Shown: positions 5,726-33,379 of the stretch, piece after piece
Position numbering within the stretch: position 1 is the first letter of the stretch
Layout: each line of letters opens with the position of its first letter
DNA from: an uncultured Candidatus Saccharibacteria bacterium
GTDB lineage: Bacteria > Patescibacteriota > Minisyncoccia > Phycocordibacterales > UBA9973
DNA: 35,689 nucleotides
Reading direction: 5' to 3'
Assembly: GCA_964469225.1 (NCBI GenBank)
Contig: CAYXYC010000002.1
Span: 1 to 35,689 of the forward strand
Program-made: the position numbers and the translations under genes
Notes under the pieces: model-generated
Databases searched by the model: none
What the model was told of the DNA's origin: nothing
What the model saw: only the letters and a program-made list of their open reading frames with translations

Positions 5726-6925
5726 ATGGCAGAAGAATTTAATCGAGATAAGCCACACGTAAATGTGGGTACTATTGGTCACGTTGACCACGGTAAGACA
5801 ACGCTTACAGCGGCTATTCTCCAAGTCCTCTCACGACAAGGTGGTGGATATGGTGCTAAAATTAAAGGTGTTGATCAAATTGACTCTGCGCCTGAAGAAA
5901 AAGCTCGTGGTATCACGATCGCTCTTTCTCACAACGAGTACTGGACTCCAGCTCGTCACTACGCTCACATTGATGCTCCAGGTCACGCGGACTACATCAA
6001 GAACATGATTACAGGTGCTGCCCAAATGGACGGTGCGGTTATTGTTGTTGCTGCTACTGATGGTGTTATGCCACAGACACGCGAACACGTTCTCCTTGCA
6101 AAACAAGTTGGTGTTCCAAAAATCATCGTGTTCTTGAACAAGTGCGACATGGTTGACGACAAAGACATGCTTGATCTCGTTGAAGAAGAAGTTCGTGAAC
6201 TCCTTACAAAACAAGGTTTTGATGGTGCTGCAACTCCAGTTATTCGTGGTTCAGGTCTTAAGGCTCTCGAATCAGCAAATAACGATGACGAATGGGCAAA
6301 GAAAGTTCTTGAGCTTACAAATGCTCTTGATACATACATCCCAACACCAGAACGTGATACAACAAAGCCATTCCTTATGCCTATCGAAGACATCTTCTCT
6401 ATTGAAGGTCGCGGTACGGTTGTTACTGGTAAAATCGAACGAGGTATCGTGAAAGTTGGTGAAGATGTTGAAATTGTTGGTATTAAAGATACTGCAAAGA
6501 CAACAGTTACTGGTATTGAAATGTTCAACAAAAACTTGAAAGAAGGAATGGCTGGTGACAACGCTGGTATTCTTATCCGCGGTATCAAAAAAGAAGATAT
6601 CACTCGCGGTCAGGTTCTCTGCAAGCCAGGCACAGTGACTCCTCACTCAGAATTCGAATGTGAAGTTTACATCTTGAAGAAGGAAGAAGGTGGTCGCCAC
6701 ACTCCATTCTTTACTGGATACAAGCCACAGTTCTACATCCGTACAACAGATGTAACTGGTGAATCAACACTTCCAACAGGGGTTGAAATGGTTATGCCAG
6801 GAGACACAGTGAAGCTCTCAGTGAAACTCGTTACTCCAGTTGCACTCGAAGAACAACAGCGTTTCGCTATCCGTGAAGGAGGCAAAACAGTCGGTGCGGG
6901 TGTTGTAACAAAGATCAACAAATAA
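5726..6925 (+). CDS. tuf: elongation factor Tu
   Basis: [18 protein letters not shown] and NKCD GTPase motifs. Full-length 399 aa. Confidence 0.98.
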
Positions 6926-7003
6926 TAGCCATTAGCAGTTAGTAATTAGCGACTAGCATTTAATGCTAGAAGCTAGATGCTATCGGCTAAAAGCTGTCCT
7001 ATC

Positions 7004-7369
7004 ATGGCAACAGAATTAAAAACAAAAAAATCAACAACAAAGAAGGTGAAGGAAGATCAAGCAACGGTTCAACTTCGCATCCGCGTACGAGCATACGAGA
7101 ACAAGATTCTTGACGCATCTGTCAAGCAAATCATTGATACAGCTCTTCGTTACGATGCGAAAATTGTTGGCCCGATTCCACTTCCGACCGAAGTAAAGAA
7201 ATACACGGTCAATCGCGCCTCCTTTGTGTTTAAGAACGCTCGCGAACAGTTTGAAATTCGCATTCACAAGCGTGTTATTGACATCTTGAATCCTAATCAA
7301 AAAACGATTGAAGCACTGACAAGTTTGTCATTGCCATCAGGAGTTGATATTGATGTAAAGATGATGTAA
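7004..7369 (+). CDS. rpsJ: 30S ribosomal protein S10
   Basis: '[29 protein letters not shown]' matches S10. Start moved to the in-frame ATG at 7004 (MATELKTKK), which leaves a short K-rich N-terminal extension. Confidence 0.93.
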
Positions 7370-9251: not shown

Positions 9252-10103
9252 ATGAAAAAATACAGACCAACAACTCCATCAAAACGACATCAGACAACGG
9301 TTACTTACCGTGGTGTGCTTTCAAAGACCAAACCAGAGAAATCTCTAACTTATGGTTTCAAGCGCTCTGTTGGTCGAAATAACCAAGGACGCATTACTAC
9401 TCGCCACAAAGGTGGTGGACATAAGCGTCTCTATCGTGATGTTGATTTCCATTACAATAAGATTGATATTCCAGCGAAGATTACTTCTATTGAATATGAT
9501 CCAAACCGCAATGCCTTTATTGGTCTTGCTGTATACCGCGATGGTGAAAAGCGTTATGTAATCGTTCCAAAAACAGTTAAAGTTGGCGATACATTTATGG
9601 TTGGTGAAAAAGCTCCGCTTACTGTTGGAAATCGTCTCCCACTTCGTCTCATTCCTGTTGGTACATTTGTATATAATATTGAAATCAAGCCAGGGAATGG
9701 TGGAAAACTCGTTCGTTCAGCTGGGACATTTGGTCAGGTTGTTGCGAATGACCTCGGATTTACAAACATCAAGATGCCATCAACAGAAGTTCGCAAAGTT
9801 CCTGAAAACTGTTATGCATCTATTGGTGAAGTTTCAAACTCTGAATATCATCTTCAAAACTTTGGTAAAGCAGGACGCTCTCGTTGGAAGGGTATCCGCC
9901 CAACAGTTCGTGGTTCTGCCATGAACCCAGTTGATCACCCATACGGTGGAGGTGAAGGTGCACAGGGACGAGGTCTCCGTCGTGCGAAGACTATGTGGGG
10001 TAAGCCATCAGGAAAAGGTCAGAAGACACGCACTCCAAAGAAATACTCAAATCGATTTGTCGTTTCCCGCCGTCGTGTTGGAAAAGCAAAGAATTCAAAA
10101 TAA
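9252..10103 (+). CDS. rplB: 50S ribosomal protein L2
   Basis: 'RHKGGGHKRLYR' and 'MNPVDHPYGGGEG' signatures. Confidence 0.97.
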   Translation: MKKYRPTTPSKRHQTTVTYRGVLSKTKPEKSLTYGFKRSVGRNNQGRITTRHKGGGHKRLYRDVDFHYNKIDIPAKITSIEYDPNRNAFIGLAVYRDGEKRYVIVPKTVKVGDTFMVGEKAPLTVGNRLPLRLIPVGTFVYNIEIKPGNGGKLVRSAGTFGQVVANDLGFTNIKMPSTEVRKVPENCYASIGEVSNSEYHLQNFGKAGRSRWKGIRPTVRGSAMNPVDHPYGGGEGAQGRGLRRAKTMWGKPSGKGQKTRTPKKYSNRFVVSRRRVGKAKNSK

Positions 10104-10112
10104 TCTATCAAT

Positions 10113-10140
10113 CAAAAAATGCCCTACGGGGCATTTTTTG
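10113..10140. terminator. intrinsic terminator directly after rplB
   Basis: A-run, stem atgccc/gggcat (10119-10124 / 10029+100 i.e. 10129-10134), loop tacg, then T6. Confidence 0.7.
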
Positions 10141-10157
10141 ATGTATACTATTGCTAT

Positions 10158-10550
10158 ATGCAAAAACTATCAGAAAAAAAGCGGTTTTCAGTTGTAGCCC
10201 GAATTCAAAGCACGAATAATGCTTTGCGTGGAGTTGGTATTTTTATTCGTGCAACACATAATGCATGGCTCCATTTTTTCTTTGCCGGATGTGCTATTTT
10301 TCTCGGATTTCTCCTTTCTATTTCAACTTTTGAATGGCTAGTAGTCGTTATTGCTATTGCACTTGTTGTTATAACTGAAGCAATAAATACTGCCATTGAA
10401 ATTGATATTGATCTGACAAGTCCTAATTACCATCCGTATGCTCGTGATACCAAAGATGTCGCTGCTGGCGCAGCCCTTCTCGCTGTTGCCATGTCCGGGG
10501 TCATAGGACTTATTATTTTTTTGCCGAAAATACTTTTGATTTTGAAATAA
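10158..10550 (+). CDS. dgkA: diacylglycerol/undecaprenol kinase family membrane protein
   Basis: Three TM segments and the 'ITEAINTAIE..ID' DgkA motif. The ORF-track start 10119 lies inside the rplB terminator hairpin, so I use the ATG at 10158 (MQKLSEKK). Confidence 0.8.
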   Translation: MQKLSEKKRFSVVARIQSTNNALRGVGIFIRATHNAWLHFFFAGCAIFLGFLLSISTFEWLVVVIAIALVVITEAINTAIEIDIDLTSPNYHPYARDTKDVAAGAALLAVAMSGVIGLIIFLPKILLILK

Positions 10551-10582
10551 AAAAAAGAGGAACAATGTTGTTCCTCTTTTTA
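10549..10582. terminator. bidirectional terminator between convergent dgkA and PRTase genes
   Basis: 10-bp stem agaggaacaa/ttgttcctct (10556-10565 / 10568-10577), flanked by an A-run and a T-run. Confidence 0.75.
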
Positions 10583-10586
10583 CTCC

Positions 10587-11225
10587 CTATTTTAAAGGAA
10601 GATACCATTCTTCAAGTTTTTTTCTGTCTGATCGCTTAATTAAGTTTTTTGTTTTACCTACATAAAACATTTCAGGATAGGTAAACAAGGAAAAGATTTC
10701 GCACTTCTGGATGATATTATTCGAATCACTACCATAGTGGGTTTTTCCCGCAAATACTTTTTTTGTTTTTGAAAATTCATAATCAAAGATTGAAAAACAA
10801 AGAGAAACATATCCATTTGCCCTGCGAATTGTATTGATTGCTCGGGCTAGGCTTTCGCCTGTTGAAATAGTGCCCTCAACGATAAGCACTTTTTTCCTCT
10901 TAAAATACGACATTGTTTCATCGCTGATTTCCTGATAGGGAAGCCCAAGGGCATCAGCGAGCAATGACGCATAGGGAATGCCTGCCGTTGCTACTCCCGT
11001 AATAATTTCAGGCATCATATCGCGTTTAATTCCAAGGAAGGTACAAAAGCCATGTGTAATAAGTTTTCGGTGATCTGGGCTTCTAAGGAAAAGACGATCG
11101 TTAGTGTAAATGGGCGCTACGTCACCATTTTTCCAGTGGAATTTTTTTACGGGGTCAATCTCTATGATTCCTTCTGTCAGGGCGATTTCTGTCAGTTGTA
11201 CAGCAATTTCCTTTAAATTTTCCAT
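10587..11225 (-). CDS. type I phosphoribosyltransferase, orotate-PRTase-like (diverged)
   Basis: 'ITGVATAGIPYASLLA' followed by the PRPP loop 'KKVLIVEGTISTGESL'. Overall layout resembles PyrE, but the PRPP-loop acidic pair is E-G rather than D/E-D. Confidence 0.7.
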   Translation of the reverse strand: MENLKEIAVQLTEIALTEGIIEIDPVKKFHWKNGDVAPIYTNDRLFLRSPDHRKLITHGFCTFLGIKRDMMPEIITGVATAGIPYASLLADALGLPYQEISDETMSYFKRKKVLIVEGTISTGESLARAINTIRRANGYVSLCFSIFDYEFSKTKKVFAGKTHYGSDSNNIIQKCEIFSLFTYPEMFYVGKTKNLIKRSDRKKLEEWYLPLK

Positions 11226-14694: not shown

Positions 14695-14703
14695 AATTAA
14701 TAT

Positions 14704-14729
14704 AAAAAATCCCCGAAAGGGGATTTTTT
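14704..14729. terminator. intrinsic terminator directly after rplE
   Basis: aaaaaatcccc / gaaa loop / ggggatttttt, a perfect 11-bp stem including the A and T tracts. Confidence 0.8.
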
Positions 14730-14755
14730 ATATTAGAAAATGATATACTTTTAAT

Positions 14756-15187
14756 ATGACAATATTAAGAGGTTTTGTATATTTACTCCTTGCTTCCCTT
14801 ATTTGTTTTGCAATCTATAAGTATTTTGCACTGGATACAAATCAGGATATTCAAGATTCGTTCAAGGAGGGGAATCTTACCAAGGCAGAACTGGCTATCC
14901 GTACAGTGATTTCAGAAAAACTGGCAAATGAGGCCAAGCAGTATCTCCATGATCACAATAATTACTTTGTTTCAAAATCTAATAACCTTTGTTTAAGCAC
15001 CAAGTCGCTTTTTACTGGGCTTGAGCAATTTACCTCAAATCCTGTCGAATGCGTAGCACAAGCTCACTCATTTACCGCTCGTATCAAGCGAGTCGGTTCT
15101 GACAGCTATTTCTGCGCTGATGCAAAAGGGTTTAATACTATTTCTGCAACAGAAGAGGGGTATGTGGCAGGGGTGAAGTGCAAATAA
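14756..15187 (+). CDS. membrane-anchored hypothetical protein (143 aa, Cys-containing ectodomain)
   Basis: N-terminal TM helix (GFVYLLLASLICFAIYKYF). First gene of the island inserted in the spc operon. Confidence 0.55.
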   Translation: MTILRGFVYLLLASLICFAIYKYFALDTNQDIQDSFKEGNLTKAELAIRTVISEKLANEAKQYLHDHNNYFVSKSNNLCLSTKSLFTGLEQFTSNPVECVAQAHSFTARIKRVGSDSYFCADAKGFNTISATEEGYVAGVKCK

Positions 15188-15195
15188 TCCTTCCG

Positions 15196-15222
15196 TTTCC
15201 CCTAGGTCCAACCTAGGGGAAA
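15196..15222 (+). repeat. REP-like palindrome, copy 1 (TTTCCCCTAGGTCCAACCTAGGGGAAA)
   Basis: 9-bp core stem cccctaggt/acctagggg with loop cca (core 15199-15219), flanked by TTT/AAA and then a T-run. Lies between the 14756 gene and the RAYT gene. Confidence 0.9.
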
Positions 15223-15248
15223 GTTTTTTATCTTGATATAATATTCAA

Positions 15249-15935
15249 ATGAGTTTGCGAGATAAAAATCTTGTGCCAGGTGAGTATTATCATATATATA
15301 ATCGTGGTAATGGAAAGAATATAATTTTTCATGATGATGAAGATTATCGACGTTTTACAAAACTCCTGTATCTTTGTAATTCAGAAAAGAAAATTAATTT
15401 TCGTGATTTAATTACAGACAACAAAATAGACACTTTTGATTTTGAAAGAGGTACCACTATTGTGTCTATTCTTGCGTGGGTTCTAATGCCTAATCATTTT
15501 CATCTAGTTCTTATTTCCCCTAGGTTGGACCTAGGGGAAGAAAAGGGTCAGAAATATAATTCAATTACTGAATTTATGAGAAAGATATCTACTTCTTATG
15601 CAATGTATTTTAATAAGAAATATAAAAGAACAGGGTCACTTTTTGAAGGTAATTTTAAGTCAAAACATATAGGCGAAGAAGGTTATTTTAATTATATTTT
15701 TTCTTATGTTCATTTGAATCCAATAAAACTAATTCAATCTGACTGGAAAGAACGTGGAATTATAAATGAACAAAAAGCATTGGATTATATAAACCATTTT
15801 CAGTATTCAAGTTTTATTGATTATTTTGGTGATTACCGGAAAGAATCAAAAATCCTTAATAAAGAATTTGTACCAGATTATTTAAAGATAAATCACGCAA
15901 AAGATATTTTTAATTGGATTAAAATATCTCATTAG
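15249..15935 (+). CDS. IS200/IS605-family Y1 (HUH) transposase, REP-associated tyrosine transposase (RAYT)-like
   Basis: 'YYHIYNRGN....IF.DD.DY..F' N-terminus, HUH motif 'MPNHFHLVL', 'GSLFEGNFKSKHI', and the catalytic Tyr region 'YVHLNPIK'. Flanked on both sides by the same palindrome. Confidence 0.8.
   Translation: MSLRDKNLVPGEYYHIYNRGNGKNIIFHDDEDYRRFTKLLYLCNSEKKINFRDLITDNKIDTFDFERGTTIVSILAWVLMPNHFHLVLISPRLDLGEEKGQKYNSITEFMRKISTSYAMYFNKKYKRTGSLFEGNFKSKHIGEEGYFNYIFSYVHLNPIKLIQSDWKERGIINEQKALDYINHFQYSSFIDYFGDYRKESKILNKEFVPDYLKINHAKDIFNWIKISH
15514..15539 (-). repeat. REP-like palindrome, copy 2 (inverted loop tgg), in-frame inside the RAYT CDS
   Basis: tttcccctaggttggacctaggggaa, core 15517-15537. 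Encodes S90-P-R-L-D-L-G-E97, five residues after the HUH histidines. Confidence 0.9.
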
Positions 15936-15962
15936 TTTCCCCTAGGTCCAACCTAGGGGAAA
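15936..15962 (+). repeat. REP-like palindrome, copy 3
   Basis: Identical 27-mer TTTCCCCTAGGTCCAACCTAGGGGAAA, starting 1 nt after the RAYT stop codon. Confidence 0.9.
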
Positions 15963-16015
15963 TATCCTGTATTGTATGACAGGTGATGCGAAGGTATTGG
16001 GATATTATGCGGTGC

Positions 16016-16043
16016 TTGACTTTTATTTTTAAAATGCTATAAT
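16016..16043 (+). promoter_or_regulatory. consensus promoter of the DGR target gene
   Basis: TTGACT (16016-16021), 16 nt, TGC-TATAAT (16038-16043). Confidence 0.65.
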
Positions 16044-16072
16044 ATAGCAAAATTTAAAAACAAAAGTCAGTT

Positions 16073-16585
16073 ATGAAAAAAGTTATGTTTCTTGTGCCAA
16101 TTATGGCATTCTTCCTTGCTTCCTGTGGAGGCGGTTCGTCTAACACAGTAGAAGATCTAGTGCTTCCTGTAACGGTTGATTATTCAAAATCAATCGAAAA
16201 AGCATTAGAAACTGGTCATTATGATTTCATTAATAAAGATATTTCATCAACCTCTTTCGCTAATGACAATAAAGACACAGTCATCACACTTGAGGCGACA
16301 TTGATCACTTTTAACAGGAGTATGGCTTCAGAAGATGTTGTGGCTCAATTAAAATCTCGTGGATTTCGTCCTGGTACAGCACGAGAACTTTATGCTCTTG
16401 GTGCACGCTATCCTCGACTTCAGAGAGAAATTTCTATTATTGCTCTTGGTTCAGTATCAGCGGCTTCCCACGTTCCCGGATTGTTTGAGGGTGTGGATGG
16501 TGATCGGGATGCGTATCTTTGGTTTTGGTCTGATGTTTGGAGTTCTGAGTACTGGTTTCTGGCTTTCCGCGACAGCACTTTGTAA
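16073..16585 (+). CDS. surface lipoprotein, putative DGR variable (target) protein with C-terminal variable region
   Basis: Lipobox FFLASC|GGGSS. The last ~40 aa (AASHVPGLFEGVDGDRDAYLWFWSDVWSSEYWFLAFR) are encoded by the VR. W/Y/G/D-rich C-terminus as in C-type-lectin-fold DGR targets (fold is inference). Confidence 0.8.
   Translation: MKKVMFLVPIMAFFLASCGGGSSNTVEDLVLPVTVDYSKSIEKALETGHYDFINKDISSTSFANDNKDTVITLEATLITFNRSMASEDVVAQLKSRGFRPGTARELYALGARYPRLQREISIIALGSVSAASHVPGLFEGVDGDRDAYLWFWSDVWSSEYWFLAFRDSTL
16460..16570 (+). repeat. DGR variable repeat (VR), codons 130-166 of the lipoprotein gene
   Basis: 111 nt aligning without gaps to 16904-17014. 97 identities and 14 mismatches, all at positions where the other copy has A. 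Confidence 0.85.
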
Positions 16586-16903
16586 CTTTGTATTTGTCTT
16601 AACAAAGATCCTTTGATTCTTTTGCACTTTGCACTTGGATTAAAGGGTTTTTTCTTTTATACTTACTATGAGAGTAGGAAAGTTGTGTACGGTTACGGCT
16701 TTACACCCCGAAATCAGAATCTCACTATCGAGAGCGTGGTCGGATATGTCTTACTGCGGAGTGATTTTGATGTATTCTTAATAAAAAAATAATATGTCGG
16801 TGTATATATCTGGTTGATTTTGAAATCACAAATAAAATACAGCATGATTCTTGAGATATATAATTCTTGAATCGGCAGTGTCACAGATGGGTATATACAC
16901 AAA

Positions 16904-17014
16904 GCGGATTCCCACGTTCCCGAATTGTATGAGAATGTGAATGGTAATCGGAATGCGAATCTTTGGAATTGGTCTGATGATTGGAATTCTGAGTACTGGT
17001 TTCTGGCTTTCCGA
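16904..17014 (+). repeat. DGR template repeat (TR), non-coding
   Basis: Same orientation as the VR. The reading frame matching the VR has a TGA at 16868-16870 and no start codon after it. Carries 6 AAT codons plus GAT/GAA/TAT codons whose A residues are the only variable positions. Confidence 0.85.
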
Positions 17015-17032
17015 TACACACTATTTTCTTCC

Positions 17033-17077
17033 CCCACCTTTCCCCTAGGTCCAACCTAGGGGAAAGGTGGGTTTTTT
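17033..17077 (+). repeat. REP-like palindrome, copy 4, extended to an 18-bp stem plus T-run (terminator-like), 18 nt downstream of the TR
   Basis: cccacctttcccctaggt / cca / acctaggggaaaggtggg, followed by tttttt. Confidence 0.9.
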
Positions 17078-17098
17078 ATCTTTAATGACAATTTATAG

Positions 17099-17127
17099 TT
17101 GACATCCAAACTCCTATCTGATAGGAT
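17099..17127 (+). promoter_or_regulatory. promoter restarting the spc operon at rpsN
   Basis: TTGACA (17099-17104), 17 nt, TAGGAT (17122-17127). Leaves a leader of about 160 nt before rpsN. Confidence 0.5.
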
Positions 17128-17294
17128 AGTGGAACGTAAGTTGTAGATCCGTTCTCCTCCTTAAGTATCTGAAAAATAAAGGTATTTAAGAAAAAGAACG
17201 AGATATCCTTCTTATGAAATTAGTGGGGTTATTTTTATGGCTCCCCGCCTTTGGCGGGATGCTCATAAATTATAGTCGCTCTGCTCCTTAATTT

Positions 17295-17480
17295 ATGGCA
17301 AAAACATCAGTAATTGCAAGACATTTAAAGAAGTCAAAGTTTAGCACACGAGAAACAAATCGTTGTTTTCGTTGTGGTCGTGGACATGCCTACATGCGTG
17401 ATTTCGGGCTTTGTCGTATCTGTTTCCGTGAACTCGCTAACGAGGGTATGCTCCCAGGAGTTCGCAAGTCATCTTGGTAA
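17295..17480 (+). CDS. rpsN: 30S ribosomal protein S14, zinc-binding type Z (61 aa)
   Basis: 'CFRCGR...[12 protein letters not shown]' with CxxC..CxxC, and 'GV.K.SW' C-terminus. Confidence 0.96.
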
Positions 17481-29492: not shown

Positions 29493-30401
29493 ATGAAAAA
29501 TTCATTTTTTACATTTATTAAAACTCATTGGTCACGAATACTTTCAGTTGCATTTTTTGTCTTCTTAAGTGGTGTCTACATGTATATTTTTGCTGTTGGT
29601 CCGTTTGCACCAGGAGAAAAACTTGATCCAGAATGTCGCCCAACAGATAGTGGTTGTACGGTTGATCTTGGTTTAACCTATACAAATTCAACTCCAACTC
29701 TTTCTGCTATTGGTGGTGTTTCAGCTGGTTCAACATTTAGTGGAAAAACTCTCCAAGAAATGTTTGATGATTTACTGTACCCATACACTGTTCCTACTAT
29801 TACTCTTTCCGTTTCTCCTTCCGCTGGTCTTCGTGAATTTGGTAATGATGTGACAAGTGTTGACTTAACAGCAACAACAACAAAACAATCCGATACGCTT
29901 ACCTCAGTAGTTTTCAAACGCGACGGAGTTGCTATTGATACAAATACGCCTCCAGCATCACCAGCAGGTGGAACAGAGACATATACCGAACCAACAGATG
30001 TTACAACTACAACAACATTCACGGCAACAGTAAATGACGGTACAACAGTTGTTACTTCAAATAGTCAGACATATACATTTGTATATGCTTATTACTACGG
30101 TGTCGGGGCACAAGGTCTTACCGGTGCGCAAATTGCAGGATTAACAAAGTCCGTTATTGGAAATACTTCTTCGGTGGCATTTACTTCATCTCCAAGTAGT
30201 CAGGTATTTTATTTCGCTTACCCCGCATCATACCCAGCTCTCACTTCTATTCTTGATAATAGTGGGTTCCAAACAATAGCTGATTACACAGTAAGTACGA
30301 CATCAATTACAAATGCTTATGGACAATCAACAACATACAGAGTGTATGAATATAACAATGTAACAACACAAACATCATTTACTAATACATTCATTCAATA
30401 A
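29493..30401 (+). CDS. membrane-anchored Thr-rich extracellular protein (302 aa)
   Basis: N-terminal TM helix (ILSVAFFVFLSGVYMYIFAV). Its stop overlaps the start of the next gene by 1 nt (TAATG), implying co-translation with the fibre protein. Confidence 0.6.
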   Translation: MKNSFFTFIKTHWSRILSVAFFVFLSGVYMYIFAVGPFAPGEKLDPECRPTDSGCTVDLGLTYTNSTPTLSAIGGVSAGSTFSGKTLQEMFDDLLYPYTVPTITLSVSPSAGLREFGNDVTSVDLTATTTKQSDTLTSVVFKRDGVAIDTNTPPASPAGGTETYTEPTDVTTTTTFTATVNDGTTVVTSNSQTYTFVYAYYYGVGAQGLTGAQIAGLTKSVIGNTSSVAFTSSPSSQVFYFAYPASYPALTSILDNSGFQTIADYTVSTTSITNAYGQSTTYRVYEYNNVTTQTSFTNTFIQ

Positions 30402-33322
30402 TGCGTAAATCAATTATCGTCACTAGAATATTCACTATTTTTGCAATCATAGGATTGCTCGGTGGATTTGCGTATCAAGTTTTTGCTGCGATCCCACTCG
30501 GTTCGAATTTTCAATTAAACTCTCAACTTCCTCTTGATGCACGAAGTGTTGCAACAACAATCACAACTAGAAATGCAATTTCTTCAGGTTCTCGGTATGA
30601 AGGTATGGTTGTTTATGTTATTGATTCTGATGGCGCTGGTAATCCAGCAACCTATCAATTACAAAATGGTATTACCAACAGCGACTGGGTAGAATTTGGA
30701 AGTGGTGCTGGGTCGGGGACAGTGACATCAGTTTCAGTGAGTACAGCCAATGGTGTTTCTGGTTCGGTTGCGAACAATACCACAACTCCTGCAATTACAC
30801 TTACGCTTGGTGCTATTACTCCTTCAAGTGTAAATGGTCTAACTCTAACTGCAGGCGGAACTGGGTTTTCAATAGCAGGAGGAACAACATCAAAGACACT
30901 TACTGTTTCTAATACTCTCACACTTGCGGGGACTGATAGCTCAACACTTAACATTGGTGCTGGGGGAACACTTGGTACAGGAGCGTTTGCTGCGCTTGGT
31001 GCAACGCGTGCTCTCGATAACCTTGCATCTGTTGCTATAAACACTTCTCTTATTTCAGATACTGACAATACAGATGCTCTAGGTTCTGCTACAATCGGTT
31101 GGTCAGATCTCTTTTTAGGTAACGGGTCAGTGATTACATGGTCAACAGCACCTTCGACTTCTGATCTTACACTTACTCATTCATCAAATGCCCTTACTCT
31201 TGCTGGTGGTTCACTTGTTCTTCCGAATGCTGGTCTTACTGTTGGTGCATCAGTTCCATTTAGTGATTCATCAGGAACACTTACACTTCAAAATGTTGAT
31301 GTACTTGATACAACAACAGAGGGAACTATTGAAGGGGCTATTGATACACTTGATAACTTGAATCGGATTCAGACACGCACTGTCTTGTTTGGCGGAGATT
31401 TCTCTACTGCCGGTGCGTTTACTACCGCTGGTGCATTTGCTCTTACTCTTACATCAACAGCCACAACAAATGTCACCTTGCCGACATCAGGAACACTTTA
31501 TGGCACGGCAACCGGCTCAATAACTTCATCCCAGCTTGCTACATCTCTCACAGACGAGACAGGTTCTGGGCTCGCAGTTTTTGACACTACTCCAACATTC
31601 ACTACAAACATAACTGCACCACTTGTTATTGGTGGTACAGGAACTACTTCGACGCTTACTTTCAAAACGACTTCAGGTGTAGGTACAACAAATGCCGACA
31701 TGATTTTCCAAGTTGGGAATGATGGTGCGACCGAAGCCATGCGTATTTTAAATAGTGGAAGTATCGGTATCGGCACCGCAAGCCCTTCATCGAAGTTAGA
31801 TATTACGACGAATACTTTAAACCAAACACAAACAACATCTTCTGGGTTAGCGCTTGTAAACACAACTGCGGCAGTAACTAATACACAACAAGTTTCCCCA
31901 GCAATAAGATGGCATGGAAGTGGATGGAGAGGTGCAACCTCTGCTGCTGTTGATTTTGATTTTCGTTCTTATGTTACTCCAGTTAAAACAACAGGAATTA
32001 GTTCAACCGCTTATCTTGGCTTTGGTTCATCAGTTGCAGGAGGAACATATAATGATGGTCAATTCATAATTAACTCTCTTGGAAATGTTGCAGTTGGAAC
32101 AGTAACACCAGTTGGATTATTCCAAGTAACACAACCAGGTATTGGTCCTGGTGTTGCTTCAACAACAGCTTCAAGTACAACAGTAAGTGGCATACATACT
32201 AATTTTCTAAATTCATTTAGAATCGGAGACACAATTACTATCAATGGAGAAACACGAACTATTTCAGCAATTGCTGGCAATGAATCAATGACAACAGATG
32301 CATGGACAGCTACAAACACTGACGCTAGTTATTCTGTTGGTAATACTGGTAGCCGTTTTATTATTAAGGGAAATGGATTTATGGGTACCAACTCAACTGA
32401 TATTACCGCCCGTCTGGATATCCAAGAGAATTATGGTTCTGGTAATGGTGCAGGATTGGGTTATGTGGCGAAATTCTTTAATGACGGTAATAATGCTGAT
32501 AGATTAGGTTTACAGGTACAAGCAGGAGAGGATTCCGGTACTGGAACACTCATACAATTCAGAGACGGAGATGGTACTGATGTTGGTGAGATTACTTTCT
32601 CTGGTACAACTGCTACATACGGTACAAGTTCAGATCGTCGTATGAAGGATAATATTATAGATACAAGGTACACCTTACAAGATCTTCTAAACATACAAGT
32701 TCGAGATTATACTTTCAATACGGAAAATTCTGGTCGTGTATATACTGGTTTCATTGCGCAGGATTTGAAAAATATTTATCCTGATGCTGTGTTTGCTCCT
32801 GATGATGGTATTACTGCAAACAATCCAAAGATGTGGTCTGTTGATTATGGAAAGATTACTCCTTTGATTGTTAAATCAATTCAGGATTTAAATCTTAAAA
32901 TCGAAGGGTTTAAATCTCTCAACCCTGATGAACCAGAATCACTCGGTTCACTTATCAAACAATTCCTCGCTGATAATATTCTTGCTATTAAAGAACTTAC
33001 CGCTTCCGTTCTCCGTATTAATGGCGAAGTTTGTGTAGACGATGTCTGTGTAACCAAAGACCAATTCAAAGCACTCTTGCAGAGTGCCGGTGGAACATCA
33101 AATCTCGTAAGTCCTCCAGCAGATTCTGGAACGGGCGGAGGTATCGATGTGGGAACTGGAGGAGATGTAACTACTGGCGAAGACCAATCTTCTGGCAGTA
33201 CAGAAACTCCTCCCTCTGATGTTTCTGGCGGAAGTGGTACCGATATACCTCCAGCAGATGGAGGGTCAAGCACAACAGATACTCCACCAGCCGATATTCC
33301 TCAAGCAGAACCTCAAATATAA
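30401..33322 (+). CDS. large secreted tail-fibre-like protein (973 aa) with a peptidase S74 intramolecular-chaperone domain and a P/G/T/S-rich C-terminal tail
   Basis: Signal/anchor IFTIFAIIGLLGGFAYQVFA. 'GSIGIGTASPSSKLDI' fibre motif. From nt 32627 'SSDRRMKDNIID..VRDYTF..GFIAQDL', an S74 pattern. Low-complexity tail from about 33100 to 33322. Confidence 0.75.
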   Translation: MRKSIIVTRIFTIFAIIGLLGGFAYQVFAAIPLGSNFQLNSQLPLDARSVATTITTRNAISSGSRYEGMVVYVIDSDGAGNPATYQLQNGITNSDWVEFGSGAGSGTVTSVSVSTANGVSGSVANNTTTPAITLTLGAITPSSVNGLTLTAGGTGFSIAGGTTSKTLTVSNTLTLAGTDSSTLNIGAGGTLGTGAFAALGATRALDNLASVAINTSLISDTDNTDALGSATIGWSDLFLGNGSVITWSTAPSTSDLTLTHSSNALTLAGGSLVLPNAGLTVGASVPFSDSSGTLTLQNVDVLDTTTEGTIEGAIDTLDNLNRIQTRTVLFGGDFSTAGAFTTAGAFALTLTSTATTNVTLPTSGTLYGTATGSITSSQLATSLTDETGSGLAVFDTTPTFTTNITAPLVIGGTGTTSTLTFKTTSGVGTTNADMIFQVGNDGATEAMRILNSGSIGIGTASPSSKLDITTNTLNQTQTTSSGLALVNTTAAVTNTQQVSPAIRWHGSGWRGATSAAVDFDFRSYVTPVKTTGISSTAYLGFGSSVAGGTYNDGQFIINSLGNVAVGTVTPVGLFQVTQPGIGPGVASTTASSTTVSGIHTNFLNSFRIGDTITINGETRTISAIAGNESMTTDAWTATNTDASYSVGNTGSRFIIKGNGFMGTNSTDITARLDIQENYGSGNGAGLGYVAKFFNDGNNADRLGLQVQAGEDSGTGTLIQFRDGDGTDVGEITFSGTTATYGTSSDRRMKDNIIDTRYTLQDLLNIQVRDYTFNTENSGRVYTGFIAQDLKNIYPDAVFAPDDGITANNPKMWSVDYGKITPLIVKSIQDLNLKIEGFKSLNPDEPESLGSLIKQFLADNILAIKELTASVLRINGEVCVDDVCVTKDQFKALLQSAGGTSNLVSPPADSGTGGGIDVGTGGDVTTGEDQSSGSTETPPSDVSGGSGTDIPPADGGSSTTDTPPADIPQAEPQI

Positions 33323-33355
33323 AAATTCCCCTAGGTTGGACCTAGGGGAATTTTT
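33321..33355 (-). repeat. REP-like palindrome, copy 5 (loop tgg), acting as bidirectional terminator between the fibre gene and rplT
   Basis: aaaaattcccctaggttggacctaggggaattttt. Core 33328-33348 is identical to copy 2, and the A5/T5 flanks extend the stem. Confidence 0.9.
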
Positions 33356-33379
33356 ATTCTACTTACCACTAACTACTTT

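What the first reader, a model, noticed from the sequence alone, without database searches (positions are those of the whole stretch)
15196..15962. RAYT-type transposase with a cognate 27-nt REP family (5 copies in the window)
The palindrome TTTCCCCTAGGT-CCA-ACCTAGGGGAAA occurs at 15196, 15936 and 17033 with loop CCA, and at 15514 and 33321 with loop TGG (the opposite orientation). The 21-nt core is identical in all copies. Two copies flank the Y1/HUH transposase gene directly, the arrangement known for REP-associated tyrosine transposases in proteobacteria. The other copies sit at gene ends where they double as terminators. To my knowledge a REP/RAYT system in a CPR-like, SD-less streamlined genome would be unusual. 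The core also contains CTAG/CCTAGG, tetranucleotides that are normally avoided.
Basis: partly seen in the sequence, partly recalled or inferred. Interest (0 to 1): 0.65.

Follow-up and report, generated by a model that had tools for sequence, protein, structure and literature searches.

The report
RAYT nuclease gene carrying its own palindrome
A small CPR bacterium carries a RAYT-type DNA-hairpin nuclease gene with the same perfect palindrome before it, after it and in frame inside it, a layout kept in most of 75 related loci while the palindrome sequence changes, so enzyme and repeat evolve together.

Summary
The 21-nt core CCCCTAGGT-NNN-ACCTAGGGG occurs 5 times in the window, against 0 expected. 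The ORF 15249-15935 is an intact Y1 HUH protein of RAYT/TnpA_REP type, with NHFH and YVHLNP motifs and E. coli TnpA_REP (4ER8) as best fold match.

It is in frame, just after the HUH strand, and is read as SPRLDLGE.

In 80 homologous CPR loci the same module recurs: a palindrome about 22 nt before a leaderless start, one about 269 nt into the CDS, and one at the stop codon. The palindrome sequence differs between loci but matches within a locus, with compensatory changes. That is concerted evolution.

Copies at 17033-17071 and 33319-33357 have extended stems; the first is followed by a T run, the second has its A and T runs inside the stem. Both look like terminators.

In other CPR genomes the same palindrome sits in frame inside intact housekeeping genes (xerD, mnmA, cysS, atpG, miaA), much like Rickettsia palindromic elements.

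In-frame REPs inside RAYT genes are already published for subclass 2.4. I therefore rate this a new variant of a known kind: perfect palindromes without a GT[AG]G foot, low copy number, and a protein with subclass-2.1-like motifs. No paper found links RAYT or REP to CPR. Catalysis and mobility are inferred, not shown.

The parts
15196..15222 (.). Upstream palindrome copy TTTCCCCTAGGT-CCA-ACCTAGGGGAAA. It starts 8 nt after the stop of ORF 14756-15187 and is followed by GTTTTTT. It ends 11 nt before the extended -10 box of the RAYT gene, so it sits where a -35 element would be.
   Evidence: flagged as terminator-like; homologous loci have a matched hairpin a median 22 nt before the start
15234..15242 (+). 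Extended -10 promoter box TGATATAAT, ending 6 nt before the ATG. This implies a leaderless or near-leaderless mRNA.
   Evidence: a TAnn[AT]T box ending 4-9 nt before the start codon occurs in 67 of 75 homologous loci, 33 of them with a TG extension
15249..15935 (+). Intact 228-aa class-2 Y1 HUH (RAYT/TnpA_REP-type) gene. HUH codons are at 15495-15503 (H83-F84-H85), the YVHLNP motif at 15705-15722 (Tyr153), and the tail motif YSSF at residues 186-189.
15515..15539 (.). In-frame internal palindrome copy TTCCCCTAGGT-TGG-ACCTAGGGGAA, translated as (I)SPRLDLGE, residues 89-98. It lies in the loop between the HUH strand (83-89) and the next long helix (105-124).
15936..15962 (.). Downstream palindrome copy (loop CCA), starting at the base after the TAG stop codon.
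   Evidence: homologous loci have a matched hairpin a median +1 nt from the stop
17033..17071 (.). Solitary copy whose flanks extend the stem to 18 bp (CCCACC...GGTGGG), followed by TTTTTT. It looks like an intrinsic terminator and lies after a gene fragment, upstream of rpsN.
33319..33357 (.). Solitary copy (loop TGG) with 18-nt arms ATAAAAATTCCCCTAGGT / ACCTAGGGGAATTTTTAT. It overlaps the stop codon of ORF 30401-33322 and lies between convergent ORFs. The A and T runs lie within the stem ends, a terminator-like shape in both directions.

Best explanation
ORF 15249-15935 encodes an intact HUH/tyrosine single-strand-DNA nuclease-ligase of the RAYT (TnpA_REP) kind. It belongs to a very large clade; all named relatives come from CPR (Patescibacteria). 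The gene sits in a conserved three-hairpin module.

1. One perfect palindrome lies just upstream of an extended -10 promoter that starts a leaderless mRNA.
2. The same palindrome lies in frame inside the gene, in the surface loop after the HUH strand.
3. The same palindrome lies at the stop codon.

Further copies lie at gene ends. There the flanking bases lengthen the stem and carry A or T runs, so these copies look like transcription terminators.

The most likely mechanism is as follows. When DNA is single-stranded, for example during replication, the palindrome folds into a hairpin. The protein binds that hairpin and cuts and rejoins the strand beside it through Tyr153 and the HUH-bound metal. 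This copies, replaces and homogenises hairpins at permissive sites.

Only one reading frame of the palindrome is open, and it is the same frame in either orientation. Insertions in that frame therefore survive in loops of proteins, including the enzyme's own.

Shown here: the anatomy, the fold and motifs, the conservation of the module, compensatory changes, and concerted evolution of the three copies. Inferred: hairpin binding, cleavage, mobility, and terminator or promoter effects.
For: Repeat:
- Five exact copies against 0 expected.
- It is the only repeated hairpin in the window.

Protein:
- NHFH and YVHLNP motifs, REP_Tyr_transpos E 1.9e-10, Y1_Tnp E 1.9e-4.
- The AF2 model (pLDDT 70.8) has 4ER8 TnpA_REP as its top PDB match, E 1.4e-6, followed by the IS608 and ISDra2 transposases.
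- More than 7,800 homologous clusters; the named ones are from CPR.

Module:
- A perfect stem of at least 8 bp follows the HUH codons in 53 of 81 homologous loci. The same test gives 6 of 537 for other CDS segments and 15 of 1620 for shuffles.
- The palindrome sequence differs between loci, yet recurs upstream, inside and at the stop within each locus.
- A strict count over 75 loci finds 54 sharing the hairpin at 2 or more sites and 31 at all 3.
- On an ungapped alignment, 95.6% of cells are paired, against 27-53% when the partner is slid. Four of 12 pairs change on both sides, and the covariation score is 0.253 against 0.115, reached by 0 of 500 shuffles.
- Homologues without the internal insert still have matched flanking hairpins.
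- Loops of the copies are identical or exact reverse complements.

Turnover:
- An orthologous locus at 82% amino-acid identity, with the same upstream gene, has a different flanking hairpin and no internal one.

Several families per genome:
- RAAC4_OD1_1 holds two paralogues, each with its own hairpin family.

In-frame copies elsewhere:
- The same palindrome is in frame in xerD, mnmA, an alkD-like gene, atpG, cysS, miaA and dapF of other CPR genomes.
- XerD orthologues carry different palindrome families at one linker.

Promoter and terminators.

Precedent: in-frame REPs inside tnpA_REP between the HuH strand and helix C, in subclass 2.4 (PMC6006769).
Against: - Both curated profile scores fall below their cut-offs: Pfam 22 against 23 bits, NCBIfam 40.8 against 80. 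A profile search of PDB sequences found nothing.
- The palindromes lack the GT[AG]G foot and the stem bulge that E. coli TnpA_REP needs for binding and cleavage (PMC3479197). Recognition must therefore differ.
- Copy number is low: 5 in this window and 6 exact copies in a related 693-kb genome.
- No insertion or excision polymorphism appeared in the two metagenomes that hold the locus, though only assembled contigs were available.
- Hairpin similarity barely tracks protein similarity.
- Saccharibacteria MAGs carry the palindrome with no RAYT gene within the 8-kb stretches fetched.
- There is no biochemical evidence.
Confidence: 0.75

Rival explanations
1. The unit hairpin-gene-hairpin is itself an autonomous IS200/IS605-like insertion sequence. 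The flanking palindromes are its left and right ends, and the whole gene transposes. The solitary palindromes are footprints or solo ends.
For: - The fold also matches IS608, ISDra2 and IS200 transposases, and hairpins lie at both ends of the gene.
- The gene occupies different positions in related genomes. Here it interrupts the ribosomal operon between rplE and rpsN. In L090 it lies between secY-side genes and the homologue of the 908-aa ORF. In L149 it lies next to the secE-nusG region.
- In L149 a 48-nt direct repeat (hairpin plus 25 nt) brackets the gene.
Against: - The tyrosine motif is Y...NP (class 2), not the Y...Q of IS200 transposases (PMC6006769 Table 1).
- There is one copy in the window, and the two paralogues traced to one genome carry different hairpin families.
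- The left and right hairpins are the same perfect palindrome, not distinct imperfect ends.
- Synteny with the upstream gene is kept at 82% identity.
- No tnpB partner was seen.
- The palindrome occurs alone inside housekeeping genes.
Confidence: 0.12
2. The palindromes are ordinary regulatory DNA or RNA elements: terminators, an operator at the promoter, or an mRNA hairpin. They are kept by selection at each site and are not mobile. The HUH protein merely binds them, or is unrelated to them.
For: - The copies at 15196 and 17033 score as terminators. The copy at 33319 carries A and T runs inside its extended stem.
- Among the fetched CPR loci, 28 of 44 copies that are not in frame have A or T runs.
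- The upstream copy sits at the -35 position of a conserved promoter.
Against: - A terminator-strength hairpin inside the enzyme's own CDS, and inside xerD, mnmA, cysS and atpG, is hard to explain by regulation.
- The three copies in a locus change together while the protein changes little.
- Loops occur in both exact orientations.
- Different palindrome families occupy one linker in XerD orthologues, and a basic form has no insert.
- The stems are strictly Watson-Crick on both strands, which is not needed for an RNA element.
Confidence: 0.1
3. The five copies are a chance or assembly artefact.
For: None found.
Against: - None of 100 shuffles gave a match.
- The same sequence is assembled independently in three other contigs from different samples.
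- Two metagenomes cover it at even depth.
Confidence: 0.01

Closest known systems
REP/BIME elements with RAYT (TnpA_REP), the 'REPtron' of E. coli and Pseudomonas (TnpA_Y1 subclasses 2.2 and 2.5; PMC3479197, PMC3116915, PMC6006769)
   Same: - A single-copy Y1 HUH gene with a Y...NP tyrosine motif.
- The gene is flanked by its own hairpin family, and further copies lie at gene ends.
- Each paralogue has its own hairpin family.
- The best fold match is 4ER8.
   Different: - The hairpins here are perfect palindromes with no bulge and no 5' GT[AG]G foot. E. coli TnpA_REP needs both of those features.
- Copy number is a handful per genome, not hundreds.
- A large share of copies lie in frame inside genes.
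- The host lineage is CPR.
TnpA_Y1 subclass 2.4 (Bertels group 4; Cyanobacteria, Bacteroidetes), with REPs inserted in frame inside tnpA_REP (Quentin et al. 2018, PMC6006769)
   Same: A cognate REP lies inside the RAYT gene without breaking the frame, in the variable region between the HuH strand (beta3) and helix alphaC.
   Different: - Subclass 2.4 has WQ and YIxNNP motifs and no C-terminal tail. Its REPs carry GT[AG]G feet ('double foot').
- The window protein has FE and YVHLNP motifs and an SS-containing tail.
- Here the module of three matched hairpins is conserved across most of 75 homologous loci.
TnpA_Y1 subclass 2.1 (Bertels group 1, 'TIRYT')
   Same: - Key motifs NH[YF]H and Y[IV]HLNP.
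- FQ-type in place of WQ (here FE).
- A proximal tail with conserved SS.
- Length about 238 aa (here 228).
   Different: - Subclass 2.1 was reported without REP-like hairpins. It has terminal inverted repeats instead, and usually a distal helix-turn-helix or DnaA_C-like domain, which Pfam does not find here.
- Placement rests on motifs only, not on a tree.
IS200/IS605 insertion sequences (IS608, ISDra2)
   Same: The HUH/Tyr fold, hairpins next to both gene ends, and single-strand DNA chemistry.
   Different: - IS200 transposases have a Y...Q motif.
- These elements occur as many near-identical copies per genome.
- Their left and right hairpins are distinct and imperfect, with guide tetranucleotides.
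- They have no hairpin inside the gene.
Rickettsia palindromic elements (RPE) (from my own knowledge, not checked in a paper here)
   Same: Palindromic repeats inserted in frame in intact housekeeping genes, adding a short peptide at permissive sites.
   Different: RPEs are about 100-150 bp and have no known dedicated enzyme. Here the element is 23-27 nt, and a cognate RAYT gene carries it as well.
HUH replication initiators whose nick site lies inside their own gene (phiX174 gene A, pT181 repC) (from my own knowledge)
   Same: The recognition hairpin or site of an HUH enzyme is embedded in the enzyme's own coding sequence.
   Different: Those are replication origins of phages and plasmids. 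Nothing here suggests a replicon.

Membership tests
Y1 HUH superfamily (TnpA_Y1) | HUH metal-binding motif on a beta strand | tested here: met
   NHFH at residues 82-85 is invariant in 18 homologues and lies on predicted strand 83-89.
Y1 HUH superfamily (TnpA_Y1) | A single catalytic tyrosine on a helix C-terminal to HUH | tested here: met
   Y153, H155, L156 and N157 are invariant and P158 nearly so (YVHLNP). They lie on helix 144-161.
Y1 HUH superfamily (TnpA_Y1) | Match to Pfam PF01797 Y1_Tnp at the gathering score | tested here: inconclusive
   The score is 22.0 bits against a cut-off of 23, E 1.9e-4. Several close homologues carry a precomputed PF01797 hit. Quentin et al. note that PF01797 aligns only partly with class 2 proteins.
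Y1 HUH superfamily (TnpA_Y1) | Fold like solved TnpA structures | tested here: met
   Foldseek top hit is 4ER8_A, E 1.4e-6, probability 1.00, followed by IS608, ISDra2 and IS200 transposases at E about 2e-3 to 6e-2, interleaved with Thg1-type chains. The model is of moderate quality, pLDDT 70.8.
RAYT / TnpA_REP (class 2) | Y...NP tyrosine motif, as opposed to the Y...Q of IS200 | tested here: met
   YVHLNP; criterion from PMC6006769.
RAYT / TnpA_REP (class 2) | NCBIfam NF047646 REP_Tyr_transpos at its equivalog cut-off | tested here: not met
   The score is 40.8 bits against a cut-off of 80, E 1.9e-10, covering profile positions 35-133 of 146. This shows a relative, not an equivalog of the proteobacterial RAYT.
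RAYT / TnpA_REP (class 2) | Gene flanked by copies of a hairpin family specific to that gene | tested here: met
   In the window, copies lie at 15196 and 15936. Matched upstream and downstream hairpins occur in 42 of 75 loci on a strict count, and in more when mismatches are allowed.
RAYT / TnpA_REP (class 2) | Low gene copy number and divergent paralogues, not IS-like identical copies | tested here: inconclusive
   There is one copy in 35.7 kb. RAAC4_OD1_1 has two paralogues with different hairpin families. No whole-genome count was possible.
REP (repetitive extragenic palindrome), canonical | 5' GT[AG]G guide tetranucleotide at the foot of the hairpin | tested here: not met
   The flanks are TTT/AAA, ATT/AAT or CCCACCTTT, with no GT[AG]G; criterion.
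REP (repetitive extragenic palindrome), canonical | Imperfect palindrome, with a bulge needed for binding in E. coli | tested here: not met
   The stems are perfect, 11-18 bp. Perfect stems of 8-15 bp occur in homologous loci.
REP (repetitive extragenic palindrome), canonical | High copy number, dispersed and extragenic | tested here: not met
   The related complete genome RAAC4_OD1_1 has 6 exact core copies in 693 kb, and 4 of those 6 are in frame inside genes. The source genome of the window could not be counted.
TnpA_Y1 subclass 2.4 | REP inserted in frame between the HuH strand and helix alphaC | tested here: met
   Residues 89-98 are encoded by the palindrome, between strand 83-89 and helix 105-124.
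TnpA_Y1 subclass 2.4 | Motifs WQ and YIxNNP, with no C-terminal extension | tested here: not met
   The protein has FE, YVHLNP and a 70-residue tail with invariant SS, against Table 1 of PMC6006769.
TnpA_Y1 subclass 2.1 | Motifs NH[YF]H, FQ or W[EQ], Y[IV]HLNP, and a tail with SS | tested here: met
   The protein has NHFH, FE, YVHLNP and YSSF, against Table 1. This is a motif comparison only. The subclass profiles and a tree were not available.
TnpA_Y1 subclass 2.1 | No associated REP hairpins; a distal HTH or DnaA_C-like domain | tested here: not met
   Hairpins are present, and Pfam finds no second domain.
IS200/IS605 | Y...Q motif, multiple near-identical copies, distinct left and right imperfect hairpins | tested here: not met
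   The motif is Y...NP. There is a single copy. The same perfect palindrome lies at both ends.

The most novel reading that the evidence does not exclude
The in-frame palindrome is not a tolerated passenger but a working part of the system.

- Because the enzyme's own gene carries its target, the gene itself is a substrate. This could give self-limitation or switching, by cutting or exchanging between the upstream and internal copies. It could also act as a master copy that keeps enzyme and repeat matched when the hairpin sequence turns over.
- More broadly, RAYT-driven palindromes would be a general source of the short peptide insertions seen in housekeeping proteins of CPR bacteria. Several co-resident enzyme-hairpin pairs would rewrite permissive linkers in situ.
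Probability: 0.2. Interest if true: 0.8.

Novelty: new variant of a known kind. Interest (0 to 1): 0.62.

Why it matters
RAYT/REP systems are the best-known case of a domesticated transposase living with its own repeats. They have been described mainly in Proteobacteria, Cyanobacteria and Bacteroidetes.

This locus shows a very large CPR clade of the same enzyme type with a minimal, highly regular layout of three matched perfect hairpins. Enzyme-linked and dispersed copies visibly evolve in concert, and the repeat can be read as protein.

Two features make it a convenient natural system for asking how an HUH enzyme and its hairpin co-evolve:
- The genomes are tiny and carry only a few copies.
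- The target sequence differs from locus to locus.

It also offers a concrete, testable origin for short lineage-specific insertions in CPR housekeeping proteins.

For annotation, the peptide SPR(S/L)DLGE and its variants in CPR proteins should be recognised as translated palindromes.

Tried and rejected
- **Rfam.** A scan of the whole window found no family at gathering score.
- **PDB sequences.** A profile search found no hit. Only the fold search found 4ER8.
- **Reads.** I laid two metagenomes and two metatranscriptomes on 14700-17300 to look for hairpin gain or loss, or for transcripts. Only contigs were available. They showed no polymorphism and almost no RNA over the gene.
- **Loop orientation.** Upstream against internal copies are inverted 30 times and the same 17 times (p = 0.08). 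The other two comparisons are random. No orientation rule is claimed.
- **Hairpin against protein similarity.** Spearman correlation is about 0, and mean identity is 0.65 against 0.59. Hairpins turn over too fast, or the register is too crude, for this test.
- **Empty-site comparison with L045.** The homologue of the 170-aa gene there is followed by the same TGG-loop palindrome, at a place where the window has unrelated or degenerate sequence. At 77% identity this cannot be called an empty site.
- **Degenerate copies in the window.** A search for degenerate copies or translated-palindrome peptides in other window genes found none.
- **Saccharibacteria loci.** A search for a RAYT gene near the palindromes found none within the 8-kb stretches fetched.
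- **Literature.** Searches for RAYT, REP or palindromic elements together with CPR or Patescibacteria found no relevant paper.
Full report
**1. Observation**

The core CCCCTAGGT-NNN-ACCTAGGGG occurs five times in the 35.7-kb window, at 15199, 15517, 15939, 17042 and 33328. Allowing two mismatches adds nothing, and 100 dinucleotide-preserving shuffles gave no match. No degenerate copies appear at up to five mismatches.

Three copies have loop CCA and two have loop TGG, which is the exact reverse complement. The window has 39% G+C. CTAG is about three-fold under-represented, and all ten CCTAGG sites lie in these palindromes. Other hairpins in the window have unrelated sequences and are not repeated.

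- The fifth copy is at 33326-33350, inside a longer perfect palindrome at 33319-33357.
- '17033' is the start of an 18-nt-arm palindrome at 17033-17071.
- Most importantly, the copy 'at 15514' lies inside ORF 15249-15935, not at a gene end.

**2. The gene**

ORF 15249-15935 (228 aa) has the following features:
- an HUH motif, NHFH at residues 82-85;
- a tyrosine motif, YVHLNP at residues 153-158;
- a C-terminal tail with an invariant SS.

Curated profiles see it only weakly. Pfam Y1_Tnp scores 22 bits against a cut-off of 23. NCBIfam REP_Tyr_transpos scores 40.8 bits against 80, with E 1.9e-10. A profile search of PDB sequences found nothing.

An AlphaFold model (pLDDT 70.8, pTM 0.75) has the E. 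coli REP-associated tyrosine transposase bound to a REP hairpin (4ER8) as its best PDB match, E 1.4e-6. The IS608, ISDra2 and IS200 transposases follow.

More than 7,800 protein clusters match the ORF at E <= 0.001. Every source name in the top 120 is a CPR (Patescibacteria) lineage: Paceibacteria, Nomurabacteria, Moranbacteria or Parcubacteria. JGI already labels some of them 'REP element-mobilizing transposase RayT'. The gene family is therefore common in CPR, not unusual.

**3. The internal copy is translated**

The palindrome at 15515-15539 is read in frame as (I)SPRLDLGE, residues 89-98, directly after the HUH strand. In the model this is the loop between strand 83-89 and helix 105-124, which includes a low-confidence stretch.

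Homologues have SPRSDLGE, SHRSDLWE or CHRSDLCT at the same place. The paired changes P/G to H/W are what compensatory changes in a DNA palindrome would produce. Of the three frames of the palindrome, two contain TAG. Because the sequence is a palindrome, the open frame gives the same peptide in either orientation.

**4. A conserved three-hairpin module**

I fetched 80 homologous loci from metagenomes (47-73% amino-acid identity) and three from genomes.

*Internal hairpin.* A perfect stem of at least 8 bp follows the HUH codons in 53 of 81 complete genes. The same test gives 6 of 537 for other segments of the same genes and 15 of 1620 for shuffles.

*Sequence differs between loci.* Examples are CCCCTAGGTC, CCCACAGGTC, CCCATAGGC, CGCATAGGTC, CCCACCAGTC, CCCAAAGGCC, CCCCTGAACC, GACGGAAGC and GCGGAAGAC.

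*Sequence matches within a locus.* The locus-specific palindrome recurs shortly before the start codon and at the stop codon. A strict count over 75 distinct loci with both flanks gives the figures below.

| Measure | Value |
|---|---|
| Loci sharing the hairpin at 2 or more of the 3 sites | 54 of 75 |
| Loci sharing it at all 3 sites | 31 of 75 |
| Median gap from upstream hairpin to start | about 22 nt |
| Median offset of internal hairpin in the CDS | 269 nt |
| Median start of downstream hairpin after the stop | +1 nt |

*Formal covariation.* On an ungapped, codon-anchored alignment of 15 homologues:
- 95.6% of cells are paired, against 27-53% when the partner is slid;
- 4 of 12 pairs change on both sides;
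- the covariation score is 0.253 against 0.115, reached by 0 of 500 shuffles.

*The internal copy is optional.* The most distant homologues have a shorter loop and no internal palindrome, yet still have matched flanking hairpins. In some loci the internal copy has decayed while the flanks stay perfect. The flanking arrangement is therefore general, and the internal copy is frequent but not obligatory.

*Loops.* Loops of the copies in a locus are almost always identical or exact reverse complements. No significant orientation rule emerged.

**5. Turnover**

The closest homologue (82% identity) sits behind the same 143-aa upstream gene. It has a different flanking hairpin (CCCTAGGC-tgt-GCCTAGGG) and no internal palindrome. 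Hairpin similarity barely tracks protein similarity. The hairpins therefore change faster than the protein, and when they change, all copies in the module change. This calls for an active homogenising or replacing process rather than independent mutation.

**6. Promoter and terminators**

An extended -10 box (TGATATAAT, 15234-15242) ends 6 nt before the ATG. A TATAAT-like box in that position occurs in 67 of 75 homologous loci. The mRNA is therefore probably leaderless. The upstream palindrome lies outside the transcript, where a -35 element would be. This favours a DNA-level role for the hairpins.

The copies at 15196 and 17033 score as intrinsic terminators. The solitary copies have flanks that extend the stem to 18 bp. 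The copy at 17033 is followed by a T run; the copy at 33319 has its A and T runs within the stem ends.

**7. Dispersal, and in-frame copies in other genes**

The source genome is not available beyond contigs of 10 kb or less. A scan of one genome per species found the exact core in 64 stretches, mostly from CPR genomes:
- 6 copies in the complete 693-kb genome RAAC4_OD1_1;
- 3 copies in a Nomurabacteria genome;
- 4-6 copies in several Saccharibacteria MAGs.

Many of these copies lie in frame in intact housekeeping genes, always read as SPRSDLG(E/A). The hosts are XerD-type recombinase, MnmA, an AlkD-like protein, ATP synthase gamma, CysRS, MiaA and DapF.

Among 120 XerD orthologues, the basic 311-aa form has no insert. 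Longer forms carry translations of different palindrome families at the same linker. Many also carry a second insert, (I/L)G(P/L)TYG, which is the CCATAGGTC family read in another frame.

RAAC4_OD1_1 has two RAYT paralogues whose hairpins are exactly these two families.

**8. Mechanism**

The best-supported reading is a RAYT-type enzyme that recognises its palindrome as a hairpin in single-stranded DNA. It cuts and rejoins beside the hairpin, and so spreads, replaces and homogenises copies. Copies persist where they are harmless or useful: at gene ends as terminators, upstream of its own promoter, and in the one open frame in protein loops, including its own.

Shown here: the anatomy, motifs, fold, conservation, covariation and concerted evolution. 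Inferred: binding, catalysis, mobility and regulatory effects.

Rivals:
- An autonomous IS200-like element. It is disfavoured by the Y...NP motif, the single copy, identical perfect ends, and solitary palindromes inside genes.
- Purely regulatory hairpins. This is disfavoured by copies inside coding sequences and by concerted change.

**9. Comparison with what is known**

Quentin, Siguier, Chandler and Fichant (2018, PMC6006769) describe TnpA_Y1 subclass 2.4, in which REPs are inserted in frame inside tnpA_REP between the HuH strand and helix C. The central peculiarity here therefore has a published precedent.

The window protein does not fit subclass 2.4. Its motifs are FE and YVHLNP rather than WQ and YIxNNP, and it has a tail with SS. 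By motifs it is closest to subclass 2.1 (Bertels group 1), which was reported without REPs.

The hairpins lack the GT[AG]G foot and the bulge that E. coli TnpA_REP requires.

That study does not mention Parcubacteria, and no paper I could search links RAYT or REP to CPR. In-frame palindromes in housekeeping genes resemble Rickettsia palindromic elements (my own knowledge).

**10. Verdict**

The finding is richer than stated: the enzyme gene carries its own target in frame, within a conserved three-hairpin module that evolves in concert. I rate it a new variant of a known kind, of moderate to good interest.

Noticed in passing
L016:4346-5335(-), L028, L011 (xerD); L026, L040, L056 (mnmA); L053, L031, L055 (alkD-like); L022 (atpG); L024 (cysS); L035 (miaA); L059 (dapF): In other CPR genomes the palindrome TTCCCCTAGGTC-N-GACCTAGGGGAA sits in frame inside intact housekeeping genes and is read as SPRSDLG(E/A). 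In the complete genome RAAC4_OD1_1, 4 of the 6 exact copies are in frame inside genes.
   Followed up: partly
P0121-P0240 (XerD orthologues); DNA in L016:4830-4960, L028:4900-5030: The linker of XerD is a hot spot. The basic 311-aa form has no insert. Other forms carry SPRSDLG, SHRSDLC, SPKQGLG, SHRQGLWE or decayed versions. They often carry a second palindrome family read in another frame, as (I/L)G(P/L)TYG.
   Followed up: partly
window 14695-17290 and 10119-11225: The ribosomal protein operon is interrupted twice. Between rplE (L5) and rpsN (S14) lie three ORFs and a gene fragment that include the RAYT module. Between rplB (L2) and rpsS (S19) lie a DAGK_prokar gene and a 212-aa ORF on the minus strand.
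   Followed up: no
window 16459-16574 and 16903-17018: A 116-nt direct repeat at 87% identity. The 3' end of the 170-aa lipoprotein-like gene (16073-16585) is duplicated 444 nt downstream as a fragment, and is followed directly by the palindrome at 17033.
   Followed up: partly
L045:165-840 against window 16016-16700: A Paceibacterota MAG has a homologue of the 170-aa gene (77% nt identity) followed by the same TGG-loop palindrome. At that place the window has an unrelated, weakly palindromic sequence. This may be a filled against decayed site, but the loci are too diverged to say.
   Followed up: partly
L149:9888-9935 and 10681-10730: Around the RAYT paralogue P0116, a 48-nt direct repeat occurs on both sides of the gene. 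It consists of the hairpin TTGCATAGGTCtGACCTATGCAA plus AAGGGTT[GA]TTTTATAAGGGTATTTTT. A second hairpin lies at 9949, and the internal copy is partly decayed.
   Followed up: no
L098, L105, L120 (upstream or downstream of the RAYT gene): Two copies of the locus-specific hairpin occur back to back. They form a larger palindrome, a REPIN-like doublet.
   Followed up: no
L005, L006, L012, L020, L025, L032, L036-L038, L041, L042, L050, L051, L061, L065-L067: Saccharibacteria MAGs carry 4-6 copies each of the same palindrome core, although no RAYT-like gene lies within the 8-kb stretches fetched. The same 18-nt core is shared across CPR classes, which is unusual for species-specific REPs.
   Followed up: partly
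window 15948-16124 (RNA run X4): A metatranscriptome contig starts in the loop of the downstream palindrome and has a 'goes back 177' joint. It is probably an assembly or snap-back artefact at the hairpin.
   Followed up: no
window 6927-6995: A 34-nt-arm imperfect inverted repeat (74% complementary), rich in TAGC motifs, lies between ORFs 5726-6925 and 6977-7369.
   Followed up: no
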